From sequence record NC_054912.1: a stretch of 64,000 nucleotides of DNA. One strand, 5' to 3'. Position numbers and translations under genes: made by a program. Below the pieces are notes generated by a model, which worked only from the letters and a program-made list of their open reading frames with translations, was not told where the DNA came from and made no database searches. The stretch's first letter is position 1; the number at the start of each line of letters is the position of its first letter. Origin of the DNA: Escherichia phage vB_EcoM_F1. Positions 26,660 to 47,609 of the stretch are shown here, piece by piece.

Positions 26660-26748
26660 CGTTTTGTGAAAAAAATTTTTAGGGAATCCAAAGGGTCCAG
26701 AATCATCTCTTTTTCATAAGTATAGATTTATATTACTTGTATGAAAAA

Positions 26749-32883: not shown

Positions 32884-34566
32884 TTAAACCATTACAGTAA
32901 ATCGACCGACTTTCTTCATTTGAAGATGCTGACCATATTCTTGCGGGTCATGGTCTTTATGTGAAATTATAAAAACATTAGTGTTTTTCATTGAATTTAT
33001 AATATTAGCTACACCTTTAATACCTTCGGCATCAAATGACCCGTCAAACACTTCATCGAGTATTAATGTACTAATACTAACACCAGATACAATAGAAGCA
33101 ATATCACGCCAAGTAAATAAAAGAGCAATATCAATTCTTGCTTTTTCGCCTTCACTAAATGAAGCATAACTAAAATCTTCACGACCACGGGATTTAATTG
33201 TCTCATTAAATTCTTCATCTAATGTAAACACATAATCCGCTTCCATTATTTTAAGATAATGGTTAATCTGCTTATTAAATAATGGAATGTACTTTTTAAT
33301 AATAGCACCTTTAATACCAGAATCTTTGAGCATATCAGTCAAAATTCCTCGGTGATATTTTTCCATTACTAAATTAGTTTTTGTCTTAACAATTTTATCA
33401 AGTTCTTCTTGAAGCAGTGCTATTTCGTCAGCATGGTCAATAAACTCAGAAGATGCTTTTTCTATAGCCGCTTTAACCTTTTTAGCTTTATCTACCGTCG
33501 TGATTAGAGATTGCTTTTTATTGCGAATATCATTTGCCAACGACTGTTGGGTTTTAATATTATCTCGGTATTCATCAACAAGAACTTTTAAATTATCACG
33601 GTGTGTTGAAAGCTGTTCAAACGAATGCGTACATTCAGAAACTTTATCTTTAATTTTAGAAACAACTTTATCACCGGAACTCAATTGTGACAAACAGGTT
33701 GGACATAATCCACCTTCGTGATACATATTAATGACTTTATTATACGAGTCAATTTTTGATTTAATTAAAAATGCTTCTTGACCGATTTTATTAAATGCAT
33801 CAGTTGGGTCTTCGTCTAAAACAATATTAACTAATCTTTCATTAGCTTCTTCTATTTCCGATTTTAGCGTTCTAGCTTCTTTTGCCAAATCATCATACAT
33901 ATTTTGTAGACGAGTAAGGTTGTCACCAGTTAATTTTTTCTGGCGTTCAACGTTATCATTATATATTTTAATTTGTTGGATAATACTATCTTTTTTAACA
34001 TCAAGCACTTGGTTCTGCGAATTTAATTCACGTATTAGTGCTTTATTAAGCTTATCCATTTCAGCTAATGTTCCTACCTCAAGCAGGTCTTCCACAAGCT
34101 TTCTTCGTGCAGGGGTCGACAAACCCATGAAAGGGGTATACCCTGCTGTACCAAGGACAACAATCTGCTTGAAACTGGCATATGACATTCCGATAAGCTG
34201 TTCAAATTCTGCTTGGAAATCTTTACTGCTGGCAGATTCATTAAGACGTGTACCGTTAACGGTGATTTCGAAAACGTTTGGTTTTTGTCCTCTTTTGATA
34301 TAATACTTTTTCTCATCATATTCCATCCACAGTTCAACTAAAAGTTCTTTCTTATTTGTGCTGTTTATTAATTGACCTTTCTTTACATCACGAAATGGCT
34401 TGCCAAAAAGCCCAAACGTGATGGCTTCTAGCATAGTAGACTTACCACCGCCATTTCGTCCAGTAATAAGAGTTTTTTGAACCTTATCTAGTTGAATGTC
34501 AATAGGATTTCCACCTACTGACATTATATTTTGATACCTAACTCGGTTTAGTTTAAAATTCTTCAC
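32884..34566 (-). CDS. 46: Rad50-like recombination ATPase (gene 46)
   Basis: 560 aa; Walker A GRNGGGKST, zinc hook CPTC, Walker B/D-loop LILDEVFDGSFD; start codon is GTG. Confidence 0.9.
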   Translation of the reverse strand: MKNFKLNRVRYQNIMSVGGNPIDIQLDKVQKTLITGRNGGGKSTMLEAITFGLFGKPFRDVKKGQLINSTNKKELLVELWMEYDEKKYYIKRGQKPNVFEITVNGTRLNESASSKDFQAEFEQLIGMSYASFKQIVVLGTAGYTPFMGLSTPARRKLVEDLLEVGTLAEMDKLNKALIRELNSQNQVLDVKKDSIIQQIKIYNDNVERQKKLTGDNLTRLQNMYDDLAKEARTLKSEIEEANERLVNIVLDEDPTDAFNKIGQEAFLIKSKIDSYNKVINMYHEGGLCPTCLSQLSSGDKVVSKIKDKVSECTHSFEQLSTHRDNLKVLVDEYRDNIKTQQSLANDIRNKKQSLITTVDKAKKVKAAIEKASSEFIDHADEIALLQEELDKIVKTKTNLVMEKYHRGILTDMLKDSGIKGAIIKKYIPLFNKQINHYLKIMEADYVFTLDEEFNETIKSRGREDFSYASFSEGEKARIDIALLFTWRDIASIVSGVSISTLILDEVFDGSFDAEGIKGVANIINSMKNTNVFIISHKDHDPQEYGQHLQMKKVGRFTVMV

Positions 34567-34826
34567 AAAAGATTCCTTTTAATGTATCTTTTAGACCATT
34601 CTATCATATCATCATAATCTAAAAAGTATTCATCAAATTCAGCCATGCAAACAACACCTTGTGCTGCTTTTGATGTGATATAAATTATTCCAACATATCT
34701 AGAATCTTCTTCGGTATAATCAATATTTGCTATGAATTCATCATTAATGTCAAATGTCGAAAACTTCACAATACGCATCCTTAATACAAGATACAGCCAT
34801 ATCTCGTAATGATTTAGGTGTGTCAT
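34563..34826 (-). CDS. hypothetical protein (87 aa)
   Basis: track ORF; start uncertain (overlaps upstream ORF by 77 nt). Confidence 0.4.
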   Translation of the reverse strand: MTHLNHYEIWLYLVLRMRIVKFSTFDINDEFIANIDYTEEDSRYVGIIYITSKAAQGVVCMAEFDEYFLDYDDMIEWSKRYIKRNLL

Positions 34827-35013
34827 TATCTAAAATGTTGAAGTTAAAAGATACAGCCCAGTCAGTGCAGACAGTAACCTTTTTAATACAATTATCTTCA
34901 ACCTCTAACGGTTCAAACCAATATTCAATAATTTCTTTATGCCCAATATCATCTTTTACTTCGCATTCAAAATGCTGACTCATCATAACATTTTTAAATT
35001 CATCAAAAGTCAT
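34750..35013 (-). CDS. hypothetical protein (87 aa)
   Basis: ATGA overlap with gene 47 stop. Confidence 0.5.
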   Translation of the reverse strand: MTFDEFKNVMMSQHFECEVKDDIGHKEIIEYWFEPLEVEDNCIKKVTVCTDWAVSFNFNILDNDTPKSLRDMAVSCIKDAYCEVFDI

Positions 35014-36029
35014 TGTGTTGCCTCTACATATAGCTGATTTGCATATTGAATAAGTGCTTCACGGTCAGAATCAGTGATGTCTGGAATTGCATTAATATAC
35101 TCTTCCATCAACGTCTGAAGCGATTGAACTTCAACTTCTTCACTGTCATCTGACTCGACAGAGTTATCAATTTTTGACACAACTCGTAATGAATGCACAA
35201 CTTTTTCTAGTTCAGATTCGAACTTCGTTAGATTTTTGTCTACTTCAGTTACTATAACACGTACTGATAGATTTGTAAAATCTTTATAGTCAATTTTTCC
35301 TTTAAATGGATAATGAATTCTACGATGCCAGGTAGTATTGTTTGGAATAAATTCCATTCGTTCTGTTTCTGTATCAAACATCCAGAACCCACGAGGGTCA
35401 TTCTCGTCACCTGCAGTTAGTGTCCATGGTGTCCCAATATATCTGACGTTTGCAGCCTCAGAGATAGTATGGAAGTGACCAGACCACACTTCTTTATAAG
35501 TCTTAAGGAAATCAGGTTCAAGACCGTGAGATTTCATTCCTTTATAAAAATAAAATCCATTCAGTTCCCAGTGACCAACACAAAAAGAAGCAGATGAAGT
35601 TTTGATATGCTCAAGAATTTCACCAGTATTTTCTTCACACATCCAAGGAATTAAATCAATCAAACATCCGTCAAAATCTACTGTAGTAGGCTTATCATAT
35701 ACTTTAACATTAGGATATTTAGCCAAAAGCTCAGTAGAGGCATTTGGATGCATTACATTTTTATAGTGGAGATCGTGATTTCCTACAATAGTGTGTAATG
35801 TAATTCCAGCATCATCAAGCGTTTGAACTATTTCACGAGCGAACTCCATAGTTTTATGTGTGATTGCTTTTCGCACATCAAAAATATCACCGTATTGAAT
35901 CCAGGTAGTAATTCCATTTTTCTTAGAATATTCTATTGCTTGTTTAATTCCATCAATTTGAATACCGCGAATCCACTCATCATCGGCTTTAACGCCTAAA
36001 TGCCAATCACCTAAATTTAAAATTTTCAT
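35010..36029 (-). CDS. 47: Mre11-like recombination nuclease (gene 47)
   Basis: 339 aa; phosphoesterase motifs GDWH, GNHD, GHxH. Confidence 0.9.
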   Translation of the reverse strand: MKILNLGDWHLGVKADDEWIRGIQIDGIKQAIEYSKKNGITTWIQYGDIFDVRKAITHKTMEFAREIVQTLDDAGITLHTIVGNHDLHYKNVMHPNASTELLAKYPNVKVYDKPTTVDFDGCLIDLIPWMCEENTGEILEHIKTSSASFCVGHWELNGFYFYKGMKSHGLEPDFLKTYKEVWSGHFHTISEAANVRYIGTPWTLTAGDENDPRGFWMFDTETERMEFIPNNTTWHRRIHYPFKGKIDYKDFTNLSVRVIVTEVDKNLTKFESELEKVVHSLRVVSKIDNSVESDDSEEVEVQSLQTLMEEYINAIPDITDSDREALIQYANQLYVEATQ

Positions 36030-36166
36030 ATATCAAGAACCGTCATTGAAATGCAAAATAAAATTATTGAAATAAATCCATCTGGAGTGCTAAAGAACCC
36101 AATCCAACATGCTCTAGTGAATAGATAAAATGCAAGAAAAAGTATCACATATCCAAGAAATATCAT
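36026..36166 (-). CDS. small hydrophobic peptide (46 aa)
   Basis: manually translated MIFLGYVILFLAFYLFTRACWIGFF...; stop overlaps gene 47 ATG. Confidence 0.35.
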   Translation of the reverse strand: MIFLGYVILFLAFYLFTRACWIGFFSTPDGFISIILFCISMTVLDI

Positions 36167-36190
36167 TATATCAAACTCCGTATAAAGCTA

Positions 36191-36206
36191 AAGGGCCGAA
36201 GCCCTT
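36191..36206 (-). terminator. stem-loop aagggc-cgaa-gccctt at the 3' end of the alpha-gt gene
   Basis: GC hairpin with UUCG loop. Confidence 0.45.
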
Positions 36207-37408
36207 TATTTTGTAATAATGTCAAACTGTTCTTTAAAGCAGAAGCTTGAATCTTGATGCTGATACAAAAATTCATATGCTTTTTCACGTTCACGGTCAT
36301 AAAGAGCTCGGTCAGATGACAGTTCTTTAATACGCTCGAATGTTGATTCCATGTCATTTTCATCAAACCAAATGATACCGCTATCATGTGAGGTCAAAGG
36401 AGTATTATCAACACGGAATTTTAAATTTTCGCCAGTAGATTTCCAGAAAACAGGAATTGTTCCACATGCACCAAGCTCGAGATGAGTATATTCGAGTGAG
36501 CGTTGTAAGTATTTCTGGTTAAGTTTACTCAACTGATATCCAAAGCCAGATTTACTCATTCGTTCAAGCATTTCACTATTAATATAACAATCTAGGATTT
36601 GTGCCGGTTGATTCGGCGCGAGATTCATTTTATCAATCTCACGATTACCGTAATATTCATACGGAATACCTTTTTCCTTAATTGCAATAAAAGCAGGGGA
36701 ACGTTCAAGACCTTCCATTACAGTGGATTTACCAGCAGGTTTTAAGAATTTTTCATGAAAATCAAACATCTGATAAAAACCTTTCCATGTAGTCGTACGA
36801 CCAATCCAACGGTTGATGTTCATGTTAATTTCAGAAACATCTTTCCAATAAGTTGACCGAACCTTCGCAATATCCATAGGAGGCTGAAAATTATATACTG
36901 TTGGTGCTTCTTCAATATCATCAAACAGAGAAACAGTTTCTGGATACCATTCTTTCATCAGAACTTTATTAAAATCGCCATTATCAGAATGACTAAAAAT
37001 AACATCAGCTCGACGAACAGTTTCTTCTAATCCCAAATTTCGACGCAAAGAAAGAACAGAATGATCATGCTGATAAACTACAACACGAATAGAAGGTTTA
37101 ATATTATCTAAAAGTTTTTTATAGTTATTAATCGTGGCTTCTTGAACGGAAGTAGCAGGAACAGAATTAATAATTAGAATATCACAATCATTTACCAGCT
37201 TAAGTGTTTTATCGTATTCTTTAGCTAAAATAACTGGAATTGAAAATGATTTGTGGTCATGAGAACTTGTACGAGTAAATGATTTATCTTTAGCATAAAC
37301 CAAAGTTACTTCATGACCATTTTTAATAAACCAATCACGCTGCTCAAGAGAAAATTTAGTTACACCGCAACCTTCAAGACCCCGAGCCAGAAAAATGCAT
37401 ACTTTCAT
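36206..37408 (-). CDS. agt: DNA alpha-glucosyltransferase
   Basis: 400 aa, MKVCIFLARGLEGCGVTKFSLEQRDWFIKNGHEVTLVYAKDK recognised as T4 AGT. Confidence 0.85.
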   Translation of the reverse strand: MKVCIFLARGLEGCGVTKFSLEQRDWFIKNGHEVTLVYAKDKSFTRTSSHDHKSFSIPVILAKEYDKTLKLVNDCDILIINSVPATSVQEATINNYKKLLDNIKPSIRVVVYQHDHSVLSLRRNLGLEETVRRADVIFSHSDNGDFNKVLMKEWYPETVSLFDDIEEAPTVYNFQPPMDIAKVRSTYWKDVSEINMNINRWIGRTTTWKGFYQMFDFHEKFLKPAGKSTVMEGLERSPAFIAIKEKGIPYEYYGNREIDKMNLAPNQPAQILDCYINSEMLERMSKSGFGYQLSKLNQKYLQRSLEYTHLELGACGTIPVFWKSTGENLKFRVDNTPLTSHDSGIIWFDENDMESTFERIKELSSDRALYDREREKAYEFLYQHQDSSFCFKEQFDIITK

Positions 37409-37462
37409 TTAATATCCTCTTTGTTTTGGTTTATTTTATCAAAAAATTTATAAAGCAATATA

Positions 37463-37478
37463 GGAGCCGAAGCTCCTA
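37463..37478 (-). terminator. stem-loop aggagc-cgaa-gctcct
   Basis: GC hairpin with UUCG loop upstream of agt. Confidence 0.4.
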
Positions 37479-37515
37479 TCCACATAATACGCCATACAGA
37501 GGCTCATTAGAACTT

Positions 37516-37656
37516 TTAAATTTTTATGCGCCTATATGTTATAGTTCCTTCTGCTTTAGCGTTATCATGAGACTCTTTAAAGCGTCTCATCATTTCCTCT
37601 TTAGAGGAACGAATTTTATTATAATCTATTTCAGAAGTCTGGTGTTCATCTTTCAT
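37516..37656 (-). CDS. small hypothetical protein (46 aa)
   Basis: manually translated MKDEHQTSEIDYNKIRSSKEEMMRRFKESH...; ATGA overlap with upstream ORF. Confidence 0.35.
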   Translation of the reverse strand: MKDEHQTSEIDYNKIRSSKEEMMRRFKESHDNAKAEGTITYRRIKI

Positions 37657-37859
37657 AACTGCCACCATTTTTTGACTTGATAAGAATCAACCCACACTTT
37701 CATATTAGGGTCTGCTCTTACAATAGGAGGATTAACTTCTTTAATTGAACTATCATGGTATTCTTTTTCAGAAATTTTCACACAAAGATGACCATTCAAA
37801 GATTCAGTAAATCCTGCATTAATTTTAAGACGCTTGAATTTTACGTGTGTAAGCATCAA
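37653..37859 (-). CDS. hypothetical protein (68 aa)
   Basis: track ORF. Confidence 0.45.
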   Translation of the reverse strand: MMLTHVKFKRLKINAGFTESLNGHLCVKISEKEYHDSSIKEVNPPIVRADPNMKVWVDSYQVKKWWQL

Positions 37860-38142
37860 TCATATCCTCAATCTGCGATCTAGTAGTCTTCCAAAGAATA
37901 CTAATGAGTTCATCGTTATATGGCTGTTTTAGAATATCCCGACTTTTCTTGATAGCATATTCGTATTGAGCAAAATTATTATTTTCAGCCGCAATCTGAG
38001 CATGCTTATAAAGACGATTCAGTTCGCGTTTGTTTTTAGACAATAACTTATTTGCTTTTCTTTCTGCTTCAAGACGGTTCTTTTCTTCAATAGAAGAAAT
38101 AAGCTTTTCCACTTCATCATTAATTTCGGGTTTATCAGTCAT
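37825..38142 (-). CDS. hypothetical protein (105 aa)
   Basis: track ORF. Confidence 0.45.
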   Translation of the reverse strand: MTDKPEINDEVEKLISSIEEKNRLEAERKANKLLSKNKRELNRLYKHAQIAAENNNFAQYEYAIKKSRDILKQPYNDELISILWKTTRSQIEDMIDAYTRKIQAS

Positions 38143-38143
38143 A

Positions 38144-38362
38144 TTATTTCTCTAATATAAAATAAAAATCATCATCTGTTAAATGATACCGATAGTTTAA
38201 TTCTACACCATTAGATTTAAAAGCGGTATCATACGGATTTTCTGGGTCAATATCAATGTCAAGAGCTAAAACTTCCCTGAGATACATTTTAAGTAAATAG
38301 GGAATAGCTTCAACTTCAGGTATTTCTTCCAAGAATCCGGAGAGGTTAATCGTTAGCCTCAT
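38144..38362 (-). CDS. hypothetical protein (72 aa)
   Basis: track ORF. Confidence 0.45.
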
Positions 38363-38903
38363 ATAAAAAATCCAAACTAGGAGAATCGTCTACAACACTT
38401 TTCTTTTCAGCCCCCGGTGTTCTATAGGTTGATTCTTCGTAATGCGTCATTTTATCGTAGATGTCTTGAATAAAAGTTTCATCTACTAACGCAACCATAT
38501 CGTCGTCACGACTGTCATAGACATTGTGAACGAAGTAACTATATTTCTTTGCAACTTCCTTACGTTCTTTTTTAATACGTTGGACGAATGCATTAAAACA
38601 AGCTTGAGTTATATATGCATGTGGGTTTTTATATTTCGTTTCATCAAAATTATGAAGCCCCTTAATAGAAGCTTCTATACCATCTGCAATCATTTCTTGT
38701 TTCCAAGACTGGGTGTATCCTGAAAAGTTGAAACGTTTAGATAAGCCTTCTGCAATAAGCATAATGGCTAATCCGATAGTATCATTCTGACGAACTACTT
38801 TATTTGGGTCTTTATTATTTTCTAATTCTGTTTTCCAATCAATAATAGCTTGTAAAAGCTCTTTATTGTTTACGTAATTATATTTAGGCTTAGTTTCTGA
38901 CAT
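38346..38903 (-). CDS. 55: late-transcription sigma factor (gene 55)
   Basis: 185 aa from ATG 38903 ([23 protein letters not shown]); track start is GTG two codons upstream. Confidence 0.85.
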
Positions 38904-38981
38904 TTTCACCTCTTAGCTCAATTCATAGATCTATTATATCATAATATTTGAAGATCTATCTTAAAGCATAGAGGATATCAG

Positions 38982-39251
38982 TTATCTAAGTAAACAGTAT
39001 GCTTGGAATACTTTCTCCATCATCTTTTTAAATTCATGAATATCTATGTAATGACTAGTTAAATCAGCATGATATAAAAAGTCTAAAAACTTTTCATGTG
39101 TACTAACATATTCACTTTCATTTAATTCAGAAACATGACTTTCCCAATATCCAACACCAGTCTTATTTGGGAAAAATGAAATTTTCATGTATTGGTCAAC
39201 ATAGAAAATGCCATAATTTTCAATAGTAATAGAAATATTAATAAATTTCAT
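38982..39251 (-). CDS. hypothetical protein (89 aa)
   Basis: track ORF. Confidence 0.45.
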   Translation of the reverse strand: MKFINISITIENYGIFYVDQYMKISFFPNKTGVGYWESHVSELNESEYVSTHEKFLDFLYHADLTSHYIDIHEFKKMMEKVFQAYCLLR

Positions 39252-39463
39252 ACATTCATCAACTTAGCCGCTTCAAGAGCTGCATCTAGTGAATCAAATT
39301 GGTCAACATATTCAATCAATTCGCCGTAATTGGCATATAACCACCATTGGCTAAATTCATACTCAAGGATGAATCCATTTCCTTCAATTTGAGTTAAACC
39401 AATGCCATTTGTATTTACTTCATACCCAGCAAGACGTAAATCGTTAATAAGAGCTTCGTTCAT
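39248..39463 (-). CDS. hypothetical protein (71 aa)
   Basis: track ORF, ATGA overlap. Confidence 0.45.
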   Translation of the reverse strand: MNEALINDLRLAGYEVNTNGIGLTQIEGNGFILEYEFSQWWLYANYGELIEYVDQFDSLDAALEAAKLMNV

Positions 39464-39465
39464 AA

Positions 39466-39792
39466 TTATACCTTAGTAATTTTCAGGTCTGCAAATTTTT
39501 TCTTGCGTTGATTTTTCATGCGACGAATAGTTTTATCGGAAATTTCATGCTTTTGATAAGCTTTAGATTCTACACCAAAAGCTTTAACATCAAATTCTGA
39601 CAAGATATATTGAACCAACAATTCACGGACAGTATTGCGTCCAATCTTCTGATCATTCTGTTTCATCATCTGATGAAGCTCTTTTTCCCATTTATCCAAA
39701 ATTTGAGGAGTTACAATATCGCCTTTTTCTAGCAAAGAAACTACTTTATCATATGCGTAAGAATTAATGACGTTTTTAATCTGAATAGTCAT
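39466..39792 (-). CDS. hypothetical protein (108 aa)
   Basis: track ORF. Confidence 0.45.
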   Translation of the reverse strand: MTIQIKNVINSYAYDKVVSLLEKGDIVTPQILDKWEKELHQMMKQNDQKIGRNTVRELLVQYILSEFDVKAFGVESKAYQKHEISDKTIRRMKNQRKKKFADLKITKV

Positions 39793-39831
39793 ACATTATC
39801 CTCAATTACGTTAAAATTTTATTATCCAAAA

Positions 39832-39847
39832 AAGGGCCGAAGCCCTT
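39832..39847 (-). terminator. stem-loop aagggc-cgaa-gccctt
   Basis: GC hairpin with UUCG loop. Confidence 0.45.
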
Positions 39848-40046
39848 AGCTAAACTTTTTGGCACCCTTCCAGCCTTCGTACATCATTGCTACTGACAAT
39901 GACAAAGCTCCTTCACATGCTGCATACTTATTATTCCAGAACCAATTTAGAAAAACTTCATCCTCAATACCATTGTGTTTCATGTTCTGGAAAAATTTGG
40001 CGCGTTCTTCAGCAATTCGCTGCGATAATTTAGATTCAGGATTCAT
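39846..40046 (-). CDS. hypothetical protein (66 aa)
   Basis: track ORF. Confidence 0.45.
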   Translation of the reverse strand: MNPESKLSQRIAEERAKFFQNMKHNGIEDEVFLNWFWNNKYAACEGALSLSVAMMYEGWKGAKKFS

Positions 40047-40055
40047 TTAAATTTT

Positions 40056-40178
40056 TCAGTTACCGTTTTCATCAATAAATTTAATCCAGTCATTTACTGA
40101 CCACTTAGTTGTATCGCCTTTTGGAGTAACATTTAAAGTGTATAACCCTTGTTTAAAAAGCATTCGTTTGATATTCAT
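40056..40178 (-). CDS. small hypothetical protein (40 aa)
   Basis: track ORF 40056..40262 trimmed to ATG at 40178 preceded by GAGGAA RBS. Confidence 0.35.
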   Translation of the reverse strand: MNIKRMLFKQGLYTLNVTPKGDTTKWSVNDWIKFIDENGN

Positions 40179-40185
40179 ATTTTCC

Positions 40186-40479
40186 TCAGCTGTAACGATA
40201 GCACTCGTTTGATTTACGCTTAGCAACTCGTTGAGAAGTATTATAATCAAAATCATCGTCAATGTAAACTGATTTTTTCAACTTTCTTACTTCACCGCGT
40301 AATTGACGATTTAACTCATCTTTAACTTCTGAATCAATACCTTTCATTCTACGCCATTTATCTGAGCGAAAAATGTTTTCAACCATATCTTTATGATTTA
40401 CACCATCAGGAGCTTTACGCTTTCCGAAATAGTCATAATCACGCACTTTTAAGTCTTTACGACGATACGTTTTACCCAT
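40186..40479 (-). CDS. hypothetical basic protein
   Basis: track ORF 40186..40524; internal ATG at 40479 chosen to limit overlap; start uncertain. Confidence 0.4.
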   Translation of the reverse strand: MGKTYRRKDLKVRDYDYFGKRKAPDGVNHKDMVENIFRSDKWRRMKGIDSEVKDELNRQLRGEVRKLKKSVYIDDDFDYNTSQRVAKRKSNECYRYS

Positions 40480-40654
40480 GGAGTTTAATTTCCTTAGCAA
40501 CTGAACTAAATACAGCACGGTCACAAATCATCTGTTTATGTAACTTGAGTATAAGATAATAAACTTCAAAACCGTTTACATAAGTAACACGAACAACATT
40601 ACCATTAATAAAATAATACTGTCCCTTTTTAATTTCTTTATCAACCACAACCAT
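40472..40654 (-). CDS. hypothetical protein (60 aa)
   Basis: track ORF directly downstream of an early promoter. Confidence 0.45.
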   Translation of the reverse strand: MVVVDKEIKKGQYYFINGNVVRVTYVNGFEVYYLILKLHKQMICDRAVFSSVAKEIKLHG

Positions 40655-40684
40655 ATCAATTCCTCAAAGGCAATTCATATGTTA

Positions 40685-40714
40685 ATAATACCACAGTTTG
40701 AACTTCTTGTAAAC
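40685..40714 (-). promoter_or_regulatory. T4-type early promoter
   Basis: minus strand GTTTACaagaagttcaaactgTGGTATTAT. Confidence 0.45.
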
Positions 40715-40812
40715 AACTTTGTGAAAAATATTTTAGGGAATGACAAGAAGGGAACGATAGCTTAGAATGGTAATATACAGAATGTGAGAAAGAAAGGCCC
40801 AGAGGGCCCGCC

Positions 40813-41136
40813 TTAGTCTTCTATGATATCTCTATCATATCCAAGTGAAATGAGAGTTTCTTTGAAGTGTTTAATGTTCTTTTGTCTAGAATCATTGATG
40901 AAAATGACTGGATAACGAATGTTAAGAGATGTGAATCCAGCGCGTTTAGCAAGAGATACAATCAGTGGACGATCATACTCAATCTTACCATTATTTGTAA
41001 GAACTTTATAGAAAGTAAAAGGAGCATTAAGCTCCTTTAGAAGTTTTGTAACTGATTGACATCCAGGACAACGACCTACTTCATCTGGAATTCCATAGAC
41101 TTCAATCTTATTCTTTAAGTTCGAGTTTTGTTCCAC
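40813..41136 (-). CDS. nrdH: NrdH-like glutaredoxin
   Basis: CPGC redox motif; no in-frame ATG in the conserved region, so start is uncertain (GTG at 41136 proposed). Confidence 0.55.
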   Translation of the reverse strand: MEQNSNLKNKIEVYGIPDEVGRCPGCQSVTKLLKELNAPFTFYKVLTNNGKIEYDRPLIVSLAKRAGFTSLNIRYPVIFINDSRQKNIKHFKETLISLGYDRDIIED

Positions 41137-41419
41137 GAGAAATAATTCCTTGGTAAGCCCAATAAGGAGGATTAACAGAATCCTCACCAGAGTTTTCTTC
41201 AGGAAAATAAACCTGGATAACGAAACCGGATTCATCAAAGGTAAAATAAACCGTAGGCAGTTCACCTAACAAATCGGCACGAGCGTTGATTTCTTCGAGG
41301 TCTTGTTCACGTCCAGCCCAGAAGCTTGGGTTCAGACTACATTCATAGAAATAATAGTCATTACCGAACATATCAAAACCATTCCAACTCTCTACTACAT
41401 ATCGCTCAAAACTAATCAT
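41108..41419 (-). CDS. hypothetical protein (103 aa)
   Basis: track ORF. Confidence 0.45.
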   Translation of the reverse strand: MISFERYVVESWNGFDMFGNDYYFYECSLNPSFWAGREQDLEEINARADLLGELPTVYFTFDESGFVIQVYFPEENSGEDSVNPPYWAYQGIISRGTKLELKE

Positions 41420-41421
41420 AA

Positions 41422-41637
41422 TTATTCCTTTTTATCAAGAACCGCATTCAGCTTGTTAGTAATTTTATCCAGACGCTCACTGAACTCACTTGAAGATAAG
41501 CCCTTTTCTGGAGAAATTAAACTAATCACGAAAAATATAGCAATAAAAGGAATAAGGAAAATAGCTCCAACTGCCATAAACAGAAAGAATGTTACAGTTG
41601 TAAGAAAATCAGCTAAACCTTTACGAAATTTATACAT
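41422..41637 (-). CDS. small membrane protein (71 aa)
   Basis: hydrophobic core FLTTVTFFLFMAVGAIFLIPFIAIFFVISLI. Confidence 0.45.
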   Translation of the reverse strand: MYKFRKGLADFLTTVTFFLFMAVGAIFLIPFIAIFFVISLISPEKGLSSSEFSERLDKITNKLNAVLDKKE

Positions 41638-41752
41638 ATTTTACCCTTAATTGATTAACCAAGCATTGATAAGCACTAAACTATATTGCGAATAAAATTC
41701 TGGACCAAAATGAAAAATCATATCATTTATAGTATCCATAATATAATTCAAT

Positions 41753-42223
41753 TTAATCATGTTTCCACACCCCATCGGTATTTGACCAAAGTCGCTGATT
41801 ATCTGATCCTCGCCACAGCTTTTTAGTCGGAAGATTTTTCTCATACTTCCCATCAATAATAACATCAACATATTTAAGCATTTCTAGTTGTTTAATATCT
41901 TCAAACTTATATCCTGTCCACAACCAAATGCTTTTATTGGGATAAAGATTTTTTACTGTTTGAACGATGCAATGAATCACGTCTCTGTTATCAGGATAAA
42001 GAGGGTCACCTCCGGTTATAGTTAATCCTTCTATATAATCATTATTCAAACATTCAATTAATTGTTCTAGTGTTTCACCAGTGAATGGAATACCATTTCT
42101 AGCATTCCATGTTGATTTATTATAACACCCTTCGCATTTATGCAAACAACCTGTAACGAAAAGAACGGTCCTGCATCCAGGGCCATTCACAAAATCGCAA
42201 GGATAAAATCTATCATAATTCAT
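41753..42223 (-). CDS. nrdG: anaerobic ribonucleotide reductase activating protein (radical SAM)
   Basis: 156 aa; CxxxCxxC radical-SAM motif GCLHKCEGC. Confidence 0.85.
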   Translation of the reverse strand: MNYDRFYPCDFVNGPGCRTVLFVTGCLHKCEGCYNKSTWNARNGIPFTGETLEQLIECLNNDYIEGLTITGGDPLYPDNRDVIHCIVQTVKNLYPNKSIWLWTGYKFEDIKQLEMLKYVDVIIDGKYEKNLPTKKLWRGSDNQRLWSNTDGVWKHD

Positions 42224-43499
42224 TGGTGTTTAACCCTATGCATGATTTCTTTATTTTTACCGAGATTAAATCCGCGTTCGTTCGGATTTCCCAAATAACC
42301 ACATGTTCTTCTTATGGTATTCATCTTTTTAGGATCAGTTTCTCCACAAATAGAACAAACAAATCCGTTTTCAGTAGGAGTCATTTCATGGGTACTTCCA
42401 CATGTAAAACATTTATCTACTGGCATATTAACACCAAAATAATCTAAATGTTGTGCAGCATAATCCCACACGGCCTCAAGACCCTTTAAGTTATTTTTCA
42501 TATCAGGAAGTTCAACATAAGAAATGTGACCACCTGTCGCAATGAAATGATATGGCGCTTCACGAGAAATCTTTTCAAACGGAGTAATATTTTCTTCTAC
42601 TGAAACATGGAAACTGTTAGTGTACCAACCTTTATCAGTAACATCCTTTACACTTCCATATTTTTCTGTATCGAGTTTACAGAAGCGATAACAAAGGTTT
42701 TCAGCAGGAGTAGAATATAAACTAAAAGCAAAACCGGTTCTTTCAGTCCACTGTTTAAGATGAGCATTCATTTTAGTTAAAATTTCTCGTCCAATATCAC
42801 GACCGACAAGAATATTCAATTCGTGAATACCAATGTATCCTAGGGACACTGAACTTCTACCGTTTTTAAATAACTCAATTATGTCGTCATCAGGTTTAAG
42901 ACGAACCCCGAATGCACCTTCTTGGTAAAGAATAGGAGCAACAGTAGCTTTAACTCCTTTTAAGGAACTAATTCTACACATCAAGGCTTCAAAACATAAA
43001 TCCATTCGCTCATTGAATAATTCAGTAAATTTCTGTTCATTGAGCTGTGTTCCAATATAAGAATCTAACGCGATACGAGGAAGATTCAGTGTTACAACAC
43101 CAAGATTATTACGTCCATCAAGAATTTCATTACCAGTCGAATCTTTCCATACGCTCAAGAAACTACGGCAACCCATTGGAGAAACAGGAATAGATGAACC
43201 AGTGATAGCTTTATTGTTCTTAGCTGAAATAATATCAGGATACATTCTTTTGCTTGCACACTCTAGAGCAAGCTGCTTAATATCATAGTTCGGATCGTCT
43301 TTATAAAGATTAACACCTTCTTCAACAAACATAACAAGCTTAGGGAAAATAGGAGTTATCCCATCACGACCAAGACCTTTAATACGATTTTTCAGAATTG
43401 CTTTCTGAATCATTCGTTCAGTCCAGTCAGTTCCCGTACCAAATGTAATTGTTACAAAAGGCGTTTGCCCATTAGAGCTGAAAAGTGTATTTACTTCAT
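42220..43499 (-). CDS. nrdD: anaerobic ribonucleotide reductase NrdD, exon 2
   Basis: C-terminal glycyl-radical motif RRTCGYLG and Zn-ribbon CFTCG..CSICG; exon start inferred at 43499 (after intron terminal G). Confidence 0.75.
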
Positions 43500-43727
43500 C
43501 ATTATATTCAGCATGAGTCGCAAATTCATGCCCGTTTATATGAAACAACAAAATTTGGATAGTCCATAGATATGCAACGTTCTTTTATAGTGCTAGGATG
43601 AAAATTTAGCGCTTTAGCTGCTTCTATATAAGACGTATACTTAATACCGTCAACAACCACATATTCAGGAACTTTATGAATAGTAGTCTTAATACTCAAA
43701 ACAAGAGGATGAGTTTCGACTTCACTT

Positions 43728-44297
43728 TCAGTGCAATTTAAATATTCCGCTGCTTTTTTTAAAACTTCTAAAAGTTTTATTTTTAAGCTTTATCGATACT
43801 TGTTTTTTACTTTTTCGACTATTGATATTATTTTGCACATGTTCCTTAGATCTTCCGTTTTTAGCATAATATTCAGCTATAGAAGATTTTATATTGTTTT
43901 TATGAGATTCGGATAACACTTTACCCTTATGAGCATCTCTTAATTTTTGAATATGTTCTTCAGTATCCGGATGCTTATAAAACTTTTTACCGCCTATGGA
44001 TTTATTTAAACATTTTTTGCTATAAAAATGTTTACGTATGACCTCTTCTTCATGTTTTAATGCATCTTTATAACTATCAAATGTTTTTAAAATTATCCAT
44101 TTAGTAGGTGTATCAGTTTTTAAGCGTTCATTTATATACTTAGATGACGTTGTGTAAGTTTTCCAGTTTGTGGGCTTGTTTTTAATTGTTCTAAATTTTT
44201 TATAACCGATATAAATGTCGCCGTTAGAAAACTTAACTAAGTATGTAAATGCGTCTTTATCTTTTATTTTAGTACAACGTCTTTTTATCCATTTCAT
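43728..44297 (-). CDS. intron-encoded GIY-YIG homing endonuclease (I-TevII-like), apparently truncated by a frameshift
   Basis: 189-aa ORF with GDIYIGY motif; a further open stretch ending at 43526 in another frame encodes a NUMOD-like DNA-binding segment (YTSYIEAAKALNFHPSTIKERC); A7 run at 43754-43760. Confidence 0.65.
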   Translation of the reverse strand: MKWIKRRCTKIKDKDAFTYLVKFSNGDIYIGYKKFRTIKNKPTNWKTYTTSSKYINERLKTDTPTKWIILKTFDSYKDALKHEEEVIRKHFYSKKCLNKSIGGKKFYKHPDTEEHIQKLRDAHKGKVLSESHKNNIKSSIAEYYAKNGRSKEHVQNNINSRKSKKQVSIKLKNKTFRSFKKSSGIFKLH

Positions 44298-44326
44298 TGT
44301 TTCACCTCGTATTCATAAGATAATCT

Positions 44327-44334
44327 TATTTATA
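44327..44334 (-). promoter_or_regulatory. T4 late promoter (TATAAATA) inside the intron upstream of the endonuclease ORF
   Basis: exact TATAAATA on minus strand about 30 nt upstream of the ATG at 44297. Confidence 0.5.
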
Positions 44335-44545
44335 CAAGATGACTGCTGCATGTCGCCATGCAGATTAGACTATATCTTCATCTTTCGATGCCGGCCGTTT
44401 CGAATAGCATTAGCTTCTATTCTACACCGCTACATTCATCACGGTTAGTCGTTAGGCATTTAGTTCAAAAGAACATTTAGCACGGGATTGTCTACTAGAG
44501 AGGTTCCCCGTTTAGACCGGTTTTACATGAGCCTGAATTAAATTA

Positions 44546-45083
44546 ACTCATACGCCTGGAACGCGTCATAGACATCTTTTTCTGTTTTAGATTGAGCATA
44601 ATTCAATGCATCAGCGATTTGCCATTTTTCTGCATCCTCAATATGTTTTGCATAGGTGCGTTTAACATAAGGAGAAAGTACTTTATCTACATTCGCAAAA
44701 GTCGTTCCGCCATATTGATGGGAAGCAACCTGTGCAGTAATTTGTGCCATAATTGCAGTAGCAACACCGATTGATTTAGGAGTTTCAATCTGTGCATTAC
44801 CAAGCTTAAATCCATTCTCAAGCATTCCTTTTAAATCTACTAAACAGCAATTAGTAAATGGAAGAGCAGGGGAATAATCAATATCGTGGAAATGAATAAT
44901 TCCGCTTTCATGCGCTTTCATAATAAAAGACGGGACCATATTTTTGGCAATGTGTTTAGACACAATACCAGCCATAAGGTCCCGTTGAGTTGGAAAAACA
45001 CGAGAATCTTTATTAGCATTCTCGTTTAAAAGGTCTTTATTAGTTTTATGAATCAATCCTTCAATTTCTTTTTCAATTGTCAT
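44546..45083 (-). CDS. nrdD: anaerobic ribonucleotide reductase NrdD, exon 1
   Basis: N-terminal 179 codons; track ORF continues 2 codons into the intron before a stop at 44538. Confidence 0.75.
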
Positions 45084-47308: not shown

Positions 47309-47609
47309 TTTCTTCTCGGTCAAATCGGTGTTTACAATGGCGACATTTATAACGAAGATTACTAGTCTGCCAATGGACCAATTGCACCTGTTCAGTTCCA
47401 CATTCAGGGCAATTAGGAACGTTTTTAGAAGCCCTTTCACGACGTTCAACCATGACCATTACAGAATCCCAATTAATAGGAGGGCTATAATCATCACAAC
47501 CATGAATCTTTCCACGCATTTCCAAATCGTCTTCTTCACCAGCCATAATAATTTTAATTAGACTAGAATTACTTGAAGCTGCAATGTCTTCTAATAAACG
47601 CTTTTTCAT
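47295..47609 (-). CDS. zinc-ribbon protein (104 aa)
   Basis: CPECG...CRHCKH four-Cys motif. Confidence 0.5.

What the first reader, a model, noticed from the sequence alone, without database searches (positions are those of the whole stretch)
43500..44545. Group I intron in nrdD whose GIY-YIG endonuclease ORF is split by a frameshift at an A7 run
nrdD coding sequence is interrupted for about 1.05 kb. The interruption holds a GC-rich structured segment and an ORF with a GIY-YIG motif (GDIYIGY), preceded by a late promoter TATAAATA and an RBS. That ORF stops at 189 codons (43728), but an open stretch ending at 43526 in another frame encodes a NUMOD-like helix-turn-helix (YTSYIEAAKALNFHPSTIKERC). 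The two frames overlap across an A7 homopolymer (43754-43760); removing one A would fuse them into a protein of about 256 aa. So this is either an inactivated homing endonuclease, a sequencing error at a homopolymer, or a slippage site.
Basis: partly seen in the sequence, partly recalled or inferred. Interest (0 to 1): 0.7.

Follow-up and report, generated by a model that had tools for sequence, protein, structure and literature searches.

The report
Frameshifted homing endonuclease in nrdD intron
A T4-like coliphage carries the well-known self-splicing intron in its anaerobic ribonucleotide reductase gene, and the intron's "selfish" endonuclease gene has been broken by one extra A, which is a real but ordinary case of such a gene decaying.

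Summary
The window is the first 64 kb of Escherichia phage vB_EcoM_FN (MZ170041). Its nrdD gene, on the minus strand, is interrupted at 44545..43500 by a 1046-nt group I intron. Rfam Intron_gpI scores 74 bits. The insertion site is the same as that of the T4 nrdD (sunY) intron. The intron carries a GIY-YIG/NUMOD1 homing endonuclease gene that is a 56%-identical sister of T4 I-TevII, not I-TevII itself.

In 41 of the 42 phage records that carry this intron type, the gene is one 256-codon ORF with an A6 run. Only this record has A7 (43754-43760). The extra A shifts the frame inside the NUMOD1 DNA-binding module and leaves a 189-aa product.

The same A7 allele appears in vB_EcoM_F1, a near-identical record made from a different library kit. 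It also appears in a third-party assembly of that phage's raw reads. It is the only lineage-private frameshifting indel inside a gene in about 44 kb compared. A sequencing error is therefore unlikely, and because relatives are in frame, programmed slippage is not supported.

Other phages carry independent lesions in the same gene: a +1 G and a 567-nt deletion. The best reading is recent, ordinary pseudogenisation of a homing endonuclease in an intact intron. Interest is low.

The parts
44546..45083 (-). nrdD exon 1 (179 codons plus the first base of the junction Tyr codon, T|AT); last base is T 44546
   Evidence: ORF list. Spliced translation is 605 aa, 602 of 606 aligned positions identical to T4 NrdD. 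Colinear with the intron-less RB14 allele.
43500..44545 (-). Group I intron, 1046 nt, at the same insertion site as the T4 nrdD (sunY) intron
   Evidence: Boundaries come from the T4 alignment, where the same boundaries give 1033 nt in T4, and from the intron-less RB14 junction. Rfam hit.
44346..44545 (-). Ribozyme core (P1 to the P9 hairpin CTGCATG-GCGA-CATGCAG at 44363-44346)
   Evidence: Rfam RF00028 scores 74 bits, E 2e-18, over 44577-44346. Against T4 there are 53 predicted pairs, 13 kept through changes on both sides and none broken. GC is 0.42.
44526..44552 (-). P1: the exon end plus the first intron base (44552-44545) pairs with the internal guide GGCTCATG (44533-44526); U 44546 pairs with G 44532 at the 5' splice site
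   Evidence: fold_alignment pairs, columns 7-14 with 26-33.
44302..44342 (-). Hairpin UCAUCUUGUAU / AUACGAGGUGA that sequesters the endonuclease Shine-Dalgarno sequence in read-through transcripts
   Evidence: RNA fold -28.7 kcal/mol, z -5.55. T4 has the equivalent CCUCGUAU/AUACGAGG hairpin. A transcript starting after the late promoter lacks the 5' arm and folds at only -3.7 kcal/mol. The regulatory logic is described for T4 in PMC2988022.
44327..44334 (-). T4-type late promoter TATAAATA inside the hairpin
   Evidence: Sequence. The same motif is annotated as a late promoter in phage SA20RB.
44305..44308 (-). Shine-Dalgarno GAGG, 7 nt upstream of the ATG at 44297
   Evidence: Sequence.
43728..44297 (-). 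Truncated endonuclease ORF, 189 aa: GIY-YIG domain (residues 9-87), linker, then 8 out-of-frame residues (SSGIFKLH) and a stop
   Evidence: ORF list. Pfam SegE_GIY-YIG scores 28.1 bits against a cut-off of 25, and the NUMOD1 hit is lost. Annotated as hypothetical protein QYW00438.1.
43754..43760 (-). A7 run, the +1 insertion; relatives have A6
   Evidence: Sequence. Alignments to SHSML-52-1, SA20RB, B1.1, JM10, 236Ecol005PP and FL23. 41 of 42 records are one base shorter over this 81-nt stretch.
43526..43753 (-). Orphaned C-terminal coding frame of the endonuclease (rest of NUMOD1 module 1, a second HTH-like module and the conserved tail YPNFVVSYKRA); the listed ORF 43699..43526 (57 aa, TTG start) is the annotators' fragment
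   Evidence: Frame translations. 56% identity to T4 I-TevII extends through this part. No private base substitutions downstream of the shift.
43511..43531 (-). 3'-terminal intron hairpin GCATGA-(loop)-TCATGC spanning the endonuclease stop codon; T4 has GTAGAG...CTCTAC at the same place
   Evidence: Inverted repeat found by the terminator scan. T4 and window sequences printed. The compensatory difference was read from the sequences by eye.
42220..43499 (-). nrdD exon 2 (begins ATGAAGTAAAT...); the GenBank CDS 42220..43551 starts at a spurious TTG inside the intron

Best explanation
This is a mobile group I intron of the T4 nrdD (sunY) type. The ribozyme looks intact, so nrdD should still be expressed by self-splicing. 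Its homing endonuclease gene, a 256-aa GIY-YIG + NUMOD1 enzyme that is a 56%-identical sister of I-TevII, has recently been knocked out in the vB_EcoM_F1/FN phage lineage.

The lesion is a replication-slippage insertion of one A in an A6 run. The frame changes at codon 182, inside the first NUMOD1 DNA-binding module. The product is a 189-aa protein that keeps the catalytic domain but lacks the C-terminal DNA-binding domain that would tether it to the nrdD homing site.

The intron can therefore no longer promote its own homing. It simply persists as a neutral, self-splicing passenger. This is the 'degeneration' stage of the homing endonuclease life cycle.

Shown here: the intron, its boundaries, the domain content, that the insertion is unique to this lineage, and that it is present in independent sequence data. 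Inferred: splicing competence, loss of endonuclease and homing activity, and replication slippage as the mutational mechanism.
For: Intron:
- Rfam group I hit of 74 bits.
- P1 with a U-G pair at the 5' splice site. Against T4 there are 53 predicted pairs, 13 compensatory and none broken.
- The spliced NrdD is 605 aa, essentially identical to T4 NrdD. The intron-less RB14 allele confirms the junction.

Endonuclease:
NUMOD1 is lost in the actual 189-aa product.
- 56% identity to I-TevII over the full length.
- PHROG 314 'homing endonuclease', E 1.8e-28.

The insertion is derived and lineage-private:
- 41 of 42 phage records have A6 and annotate a 771-nt ORF.
- T4 has no homopolymer at this position.

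The insertion is real rather than an error:
- The exact 189-aa and 57-aa fragments are also in vB_EcoM_F1.
- F1 was sequenced from a KAPA HyperPlus library at 125x on MiSeq. FN was sequenced from a TruSeq Nano library on MiSeq.
- A Logan assembly of SRR12228473 carries A7 and is 100% identical to the window over 10,777 nt.
- Across about 44 kb compared with three relatives, the only other lineage-private single indels not divisible by three lie in intergenic DNA or at a stop codon.

The insertion is recent:
- There are no private base substitutions downstream of the shift.

Decay is a pattern for this gene:
- 236Ecol005PP has a +1 G elsewhere in the ORF.
- 215Ecol030PP has a 567-nt internal deletion flanked by AAGAC microhomology.
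- Other truncated fragments appear in read assemblies.
Against: - No read pile-up was inspected, so a minority A6 sub-population in the stock cannot be excluded.
- FN and F1 are essentially the same phage, so the two records are replicates of one lineage rather than independent natural isolates. That they come from separate libraries rests on the papers' methods sections.
- Loss of activity is inferred from domain logic and, from my own knowledge, from the behaviour of I-TevI. Nobody has assayed this enzyme, intact or truncated.
- An A7 run could allow rare restoration of the frame by RNA polymerase slippage or a +1 ribosomal shift, so the knock-out may be leaky.
Confidence: 0.85

Rival explanations
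1. Sequencing or assembly error: the phage really has A6 and an intact 256-aa endonuclease, and the extra A is a homopolymer miscall in the consensus.
For: It is a single-base difference in a homopolymer. It appears in only one of the 42 records in the phage collection. Both GenBank records come from one laboratory and one assembler, Geneious.
Against: The platform was Illumina MiSeq at 125x, which is not prone to consensus errors at 7-mers. The same A7 is found in two records made from different library kits. It is also in a third-party assembly of the raw reads made with different software. No other lineage-private frameshifting indel inside a gene was found in about 44 kb.
Confidence: 0.07
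2. Slippage site in use: the A7 run lets RNA polymerase drop one A, or lets ribosomes shift +1 (AAA AAA A to A AAA AAA). The phage would then make mostly a truncated protein plus a small, tolerable amount of full-length endonuclease, either as a regulatory device or as a leaky 'savior indel'.
For: Lysine tRNA can re-pair perfectly after a +1 shift on A7. Deleting one A in the mRNA restores the frame (sequence). Low-level compensatory frameshifting at 7-8-nt homopolymers is documented for herpesvirus thymidine kinase (PMC5009743). The downstream frame is still undamaged.
Against: The split is not conserved: 41 of 42 records have A6 and one ORF, and T4 has no run at all. Reading the sequence, there is no stimulatory element: no stop or rare codon after the run (the next codon is AGC) and no Shine-Dalgarno-like motif upstream. 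From my own knowledge, seven A's is below the run length at which E. coli RNA polymerase slips efficiently. An undamaged downstream frame is equally expected for a very recent mutation.
Confidence: 0.05
3. Split-gene reading: the two fragments (the 189-aa catalytic part and the 57-aa HTH part) are both made and act together, or the truncated GIY-YIG protein has taken on a new role.
For: Both fragments are annotated as separate CDSs in GenBank. The GIY-YIG domain is intact in the 189-aa product.
Against: The 57-aa ORF starts at a TTG with no Shine-Dalgarno sequence upstream (sequence). It also lacks the first NUMOD1 module, which the shift bisects. The arrangement exists in one lineage only. 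Other lineages break the gene at other places, which is the pattern of decay rather than of a new design.
Confidence: 0.02

Closest known systems
Phage T4 nrdD (sunY) group I intron with I-TevII
   Same: - Same host gene and exactly the same insertion site.
- Same layout: ribozyme core first, then the ORF in a 3' peripheral region, then a short 3' tail.
- Same late promoter TATAAATA inside an RBS-sequestering hairpin.
- Same enzyme architecture, GIY-YIG plus NUMOD1, at 256 versus 258 aa.
   Different: - Intron DNA is roughly 55-78% identical per alignment block, while the exons are 92-100% identical.
- The endonuclease is 56% identical.
- The two types form discrete groups in the phage collection (25 T4-type records, 43 of this type) with nothing in between.
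- In this window the ORF is frameshifted, whereas T4's is intact and active.
Phage T4 nrdB intron with defective I-TevIII (intact in phage RB3)
   Same: A T-even group I intron that still splices while its endonuclease gene has been inactivated by mutation. Intact versions exist in related phages (PMC2988022; PMC1865063).
   Different: I-TevIII is an HNH enzyme inactivated by a large deletion. Here the enzyme is GIY-YIG and the lesion is a single-base insertion. The deletion counterpart for this intron type is seen in phage 215Ecol030PP.
Homing endonuclease life cycle (invasion, fixation, degeneration, loss) and frameshifted HEGs in other phages such as ICP1
   Same: Variable presence among close relatives. 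When present, the gene is unstable through frameshifts, premature stops and in-frame deletions (PMC10448857; the cycle is mentioned in PMC2988022).
   Different: Nothing of principle differs. This is one more instance, in the classical T4 system.

Membership tests
Group I self-splicing intron (Rfam RF00028) | Match to the covariance model above the curated gathering score | tested here: met
   74 bits against a gathering score of 50, E 2e-18, model positions 1-253 of 253, at 44577-44346.
Group I self-splicing intron (Rfam RF00028) | 5' exon ends in U paired with G in P1; the intron ends in G | tested here: met
   U 44546 pairs with G 44532 in the predicted P1. The last intron base, 43500, is G.
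Group I self-splicing intron (Rfam RF00028) | Removing the insert restores the host reading frame, colinear with intron-less alleles | tested here: met
   The spliced NrdD is 605 aa, with 602 of 606 aligned positions identical to T4. RB14 nrdD is contiguous across the junction.
Group I self-splicing intron (Rfam RF00028) | Secondary structure maintained by compensatory changes relative to a homologue | tested here: met
   Against the T4 intron there are 53 predicted pairs, 13 kept through changes on both sides and 0 broken. Only two sequence types were compared.
Group I self-splicing intron (Rfam RF00028) | Guanosine-dependent self-splicing | not testable with these tools
   Needs in vitro transcription and splicing, or RT-PCR.
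GIY-YIG homing endonuclease, I-TevII lineage | GIY-YIG catalytic domain | tested here: met
   Pfam PF19835 SegE_GIY-YIG scores 27.6-28.1 bits against a cut-off of 25, at residues 9-87. The motif GDIYIGY is present.
GIY-YIG homing endonuclease, I-TevII lineage | Full-length homology to I-TevII | tested here: met
   For the repaired ORF, 143 of 257 positions are identical (56%), E 7e-101, over residues 1-256.
GIY-YIG homing endonuclease, I-TevII lineage | C-terminal DNA-binding domain (NUMOD1/HTH) joined to the catalytic domain in one polypeptide | tested here: not met
   In the window the frame breaks at codon 182, inside NUMOD1 (residues 171-193 of the repaired protein). The real 189-aa product has no NUMOD1 hit. 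Relatives meet this feature.
GIY-YIG homing endonuclease, I-TevII lineage | Site-specific cleavage of intron-less nrdD, and homing | not testable with these tools
   No assay exists for this sister enzyme, intact or truncated.
Programmed frameshift / transcriptional slippage gene | The two-frame arrangement and the slippery run are conserved among homologues | tested here: not met
   41 of 42 records have A6 and a single ORF. T4 has TTTTAAATCAGC, with no run.
Programmed frameshift / transcriptional slippage gene | Stimulatory context: a stop or rare codon after the slip site, an upstream Shine-Dalgarno-like motif, or a downstream structure | tested here: inconclusive
   None was seen on reading the sequence (AGAAGUUUUAAAAAAAGCAGC). 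No dedicated predictor was run.
T4 intron-endonuclease expression control (late promoter plus RBS-sequestering hairpin) | TATAAATA immediately upstream of the ORF, placed so that late transcripts lack the 5' arm of a hairpin that covers the Shine-Dalgarno sequence | tested here: met
   TATAAATA is at 44334-44327. The hairpin spans 44342-44302 and folds at -28.7 kcal/mol, z -5.55. The transcript truncated at the late start folds at only -3.7 kcal/mol. The scheme is described in PMC2988022. Transcription starts were not measured.

The most novel reading that the evidence does not exclude
The A7 allele is not a dead gene but a leaky one. Rare loss of one A by RNA polymerase, or a +1 shift of lysine tRNA on AAA-AAA-A, would restore the frame in a small fraction of products. 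That could give just enough full-length endonuclease for occasional homing while sparing the phage the cost of a DNA-cutting enzyme. This would be a 'savior indel' of the kind known from herpesvirus thymidine kinase, but in a homing endonuclease.

A second reading is also not excluded. This intron/endonuclease lineage and the T4 lineage may differ in target specificity and compete for the same nrdD site.
Probability: 0.05. Interest if true: 0.4.

Novelty: new member of a known kind. Interest (0 to 1): 0.15.

Why it matters
It matters little beyond housekeeping. It is a tidy natural example of the degeneration stage of the homing endonuclease cycle in the classical T4 intron system.

Three independent lesions (+1 A, +1 G and a 567-nt deletion) occur in one intron type that is otherwise about 99% conserved across Tequatrovirus and Mosigvirus phages.

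It shows that the nrdD site is occupied in nature by two discrete intron/endonuclease lineages. The uncharacterised one is found in more records of this collection than the textbook T4 type (43 against 25).

It also flags annotation problems in MZ170041 and its relatives: nrdD is annotated as two unjoined CDSs, exon 2 is given a spurious TTG start, and the endonuclease is labelled as two 'hypothetical proteins'.

Tried and rejected
- IMG/VR exact-pattern scans for the A7 and A6 contexts both found nothing. That collection gave no frequency information.
- MT682712 (vB_EcoM_F1) is not in the phage collection. F1 was compared only through its proteins and the Logan read assembly.
- My first reading of the 236Ecol005PP lesion, as GGG to GGGG, was wrong. 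Direct inspection shows a G inserted at GAAG^AAC.
- RNAalifold on the 3' tail did not recover the hairpin that each sequence forms on its own, because a gap offsets the two arms. I therefore cite the hairpin from the inverted-repeat scan and from the sequences.
- The sigma-70 promoter scan of the region is uninformative: 1 site found against 5.3 expected. T4 late promoters are not covered by that scan.
- I considered a 'T4 I-TevII with a sequencing error' reading and rejected it. The gene is only 56% identical to I-TevII and belongs to a separate, well-populated lineage.
- I ran no structure prediction or large protein-database search, because domain content and homology were already unambiguous.

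Full report
**Identity of the window**

The region 43400-44650 matches Escherichia phage vB_EcoM_FN (MZ170041.1, Tequatrovirus effone) at 100% identity and at the same coordinates. The window is therefore the first 64 kb of that record. GenBank annotates the locus as two separate 'ribonucleotide reductase class III large subunit' CDSs with two 'hypothetical proteins' between them.

**The observation**

All genes here are on the minus strand.
- nrdD exon 1 runs 45083..44546.
- The insert runs 44545..43500 (1046 nt).
- Exon 2 runs 43499..42220.

Joining the exons gives a 605-aa NrdD with 602 of 606 aligned positions (stop included) identical to T4 NrdD. The same boundaries applied to T4 give a 1033-nt intron. 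Intron-less alleles are common: 690 records cover at least 80% of a 160-nt spliced-junction query. RB14 nrdD is contiguous exactly across the proposed junction. The junction sequence leaves no alternative placement of the boundaries. The exon ends in U and the intron ends in G.

The 5' 200 nt of the insert is a group I ribozyme. Rfam RF00028 scores 74 bits against a gathering score of 50, E 2e-18, full model length. Its GC is 0.42, against 0.288 for the ORF and 0.342 for the window. A consensus fold with the T4 intron predicts P1, with U 44546 pairing with G 44532. It gives 53 pairs in all, 13 kept through changes on both sides and none broken.

Downstream lie, in order:
- the P9 hairpin at 44363-44346;
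- TATAAATA at 44334-44327;
- GAGG at 44308-44305;
- the ATG at 44297.

The Shine-Dalgarno sequence is buried in a hairpin at 44342-44302 (-28.7 kcal/mol, z -5.55). Its 5' arm lies upstream of, and overlaps, the late promoter. A late transcript would therefore lack that arm and fold at only -3.7 kcal/mol. T4 achieves the same with a different 5' arm. This is the published control scheme for the T4 intron endonucleases (PMC2988022).

**The ORF and the frameshift**

ORF 44297..43728 encodes 189 aa. A second frame is open to the stop at 43526. The two overlap at an exact A7 run, 43754-43760. Removing one A gives a 256-aa protein.

The repaired protein has these features.
- Pfam SegE_GIY-YIG at residues 9-87 (27.6 bits, cut-off 25).
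- Pfam NUMOD1 at residues 171-193 (25.3 bits, cut-off 22.8).
- PHROG 314 'homing endonuclease', E 1.8e-28.
- 56% identity to T4 I-TevII (258 aa) from end to end.

The shift falls at codon 182, inside the NUMOD1 module. The real 189-aa product keeps the GIY-YIG hit and loses NUMOD1. It is probably a second NUMOD1-like module, because it repeats the x-S-x-x-x-A-A-x-x-L pattern of the first. That judgement comes from reading the sequence.

**Not T4's intron but a sister lineage**

Exons are 92-100% identical to T4 per 100-column block. Intron blocks are 55-78% identical.

A protein search of the phage collection finds two discrete groups: 43 records at 95% identity or more to this enzyme, and 25 records at about 55%. 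Those 25 match the 25 records that a DNA search with T4 I-TevII finds, all at 99% or more. Nothing lies between the groups.

Within its group the intron is about 99% identical even between phages whose flanking exons differ at many synonymous sites, and across two genera, Tequatrovirus and Mosigvirus. That is the classic signature of recent horizontal spread by homing. The stretch of flanking exon that travels with the intron differs between phages, as expected for co-conversion tracts.

**Is the extra A real?**

1. All five relatives that I aligned base by base have A6. Of the 42 records that contain this 81-nt stretch, 41 match with a single gap over 80 nt, and only FN is exact. Most of them annotate a 771-nt 'homing endonuclease'.
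2. FN was sequenced on Illumina MiSeq (2x300, TruSeq Nano library).
3. The exact 189-aa and 57-aa products are also encoded by vB_EcoM_F1 (MT682712; 168,410 bp against 168,411 for FN). F1 was isolated in 2007 as phiF38E. It was sequenced from a KAPA HyperPlus library at 125x (run SRR12228473).
4. A Logan assembly of SRR12228473, made independently of the authors' Geneious assembly, has a 17.9-kb contig with A7. The 10,777 nt of it that I retrieved are identical to window 44504..33728.
5. Across about 44 kb aligned to three relatives, only a few indels of length not divisible by three are private to the window. They are this one, one in intergenic DNA (39828), one at a stop codon or intergenic edge (48587), and a compensating +2/-2 pair at 47360/47368 that looks like an alignment artefact. 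The assembly is therefore not littered with homopolymer errors.

The A7 is thus a genuine majority allele of the F1/FN phage lineage. FN and F1 are effectively one phage, so this is replication of sequencing, not of nature.

**Is it programmed?**

No. The split is not conserved, and T4 has no homopolymer there (TTTT-AAATCAGC). No stimulatory context is visible in the sequence. Restoring the frame would need a +1 ribosomal shift or loss of one A in the mRNA. Both are possible in principle at A7 and are known at low level for comparable runs (PMC5009743), so a trace of full-length protein cannot be excluded. Runs of 7 or more A/T are rare in this genome: 2 in 64 kb against 60 runs of six. That fits the A7 being a fresh slippage product of an A6 hot spot.

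**Context of decay**

The same intron type carries other, independent lesions in its endonuclease gene.
- 236Ecol005PP has a G inserted at GAAG^AAC, splitting the gene into 123-aa and 130-aa pieces.
- 215Ecol030PP has a 567-nt internal deletion flanked by AAGAC microhomology. The ribozyme core and the 3' end are intact.
- Read assemblies contain a 96-aa fragment explained by A6 to A5 at AGCAAAAAATGT (7 contigs) and a 130-aa C-terminal fragment (14 contigs).

In FN there are no private base substitutions downstream of the shift, so the event is recent.

**Mechanism**

The ribozyme should still splice, leaving nrdD functional (inferred). The endonuclease lacks its DNA-binding domain. By analogy with I-TevI, whose catalytic domain depends on its C-terminal DNA-binding domain for specific cleavage (my own knowledge; domain layout in PMC2988022), it should be unable to cut intron-less nrdD or drive homing (inferred). 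This corresponds to the degeneration stage of the homing endonuclease cycle. The T4 nrdB intron with its defective I-TevIII is the closest precedent. Frameshifted homing endonuclease genes are also routine in other phages (PMC10448857).

**Verdict**

The thing itself is an ordinary member of a very well-known kind. The mildly new points are that it belongs to an uncharacterised sister lineage of the T4 nrdD intron and I-TevII, and that this lineage shows a small series of independent endonuclease-gene lesions. Interest is low.

Noticed in passing
L013 (PP328843.1, Escherichia phage 215Ecol030PP), locus 301-939: The same nrdD intron type carries a 567-nt internal deletion of the endonuclease gene. 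It removes window 44256..43690 and is flanked by AAGAC microhomology. The ribozyme core, promoter, RBS and 3' tail are kept, giving a natural near ORF-less derivative of about 479 nt.
   Followed up: partly
L007 (PP434423.1, Escherichia phage 236Ecol005PP), equivalent to window ~43958; proteins P0010, P0011, P0013, P0015: Independent frameshifts occur in the same gene. One is a +1 G at GAAG^AAC, giving 123-aa and 130-aa fragments. In public read assemblies there is a 96-aa fragment consistent with A6 to A5 at AGCAAAAAATGT (7 contigs) and a 130-aa C-terminal fragment (14 contigs).
   Followed up: partly
window 43400-44650 versus T4 (L004) and the phage collection: Two discrete intron/endonuclease lineages occupy the identical nrdD site: the T4 type in 25 records and this type in 43, at 55-56% amino-acid identity with no intermediates. 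This type is about 99% conserved across Tequatrovirus and Mosigvirus phages whose exons differ much more. The length of the co-travelling exon tract varies between phages.
   Followed up: partly
window 42220-43551 and 44538-45083: GenBank annotates nrdD as two unjoined CDSs. The exon 2 CDS starts at a spurious TTG (43551) inside the intron and overlaps the end of the endonuclease gene. The exon 1 CDS runs 8 nt into the intron to a stop at 44538. Many related records have the same problem.
   Followed up: yes
window 33728-44504 versus L016 (Logan contig of SRR12228473): vB_EcoM_FN (MZ170041, 168,411 bp) and vB_EcoM_F1 (MT682712, 168,410 bp, isolated in 2007 as phiF38E) are identical over the 10.8 kb compared and share gene numbering. 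They look like the same phage deposited twice under different names.
   Followed up: partly
window 42220-42223 (nrdG/nrdD boundary): nrdG (41753-42223) abuts nrdD directly. The HNH endonuclease gene mobC sits between them in T4, and a MobC gene follows nrdD exon 2 in phage SA20RB. It is absent here.
   Followed up: no
window 26669-26675 and 43754-43760: These are the only two A/T homopolymers of 7 or more in the 64-kb window, against 60 runs of six. The other run also varies in length between relatives: JB75 has two fewer A's there. Whether it is intergenic was not checked.
   Followed up: partly
protein P0004 (WP_171921553.1): An intact 256-aa copy of this endonuclease is filed in RefSeq as 'transposase [Escherichia coli]'. 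The contigs are about 168 kb, so this is probably phage DNA in a bacterial assembly with a misleading name.
   Followed up: no
window 43511-43531: A hairpin (GCATGA/TCATGC) spans the endonuclease stop codon just before the 3' splice site. T4 has GTAGAG/CTCTAC at the same place, so the stem is kept by compensatory changes. It is probably one of the 3'-terminal intron helices.
   Followed up: partly
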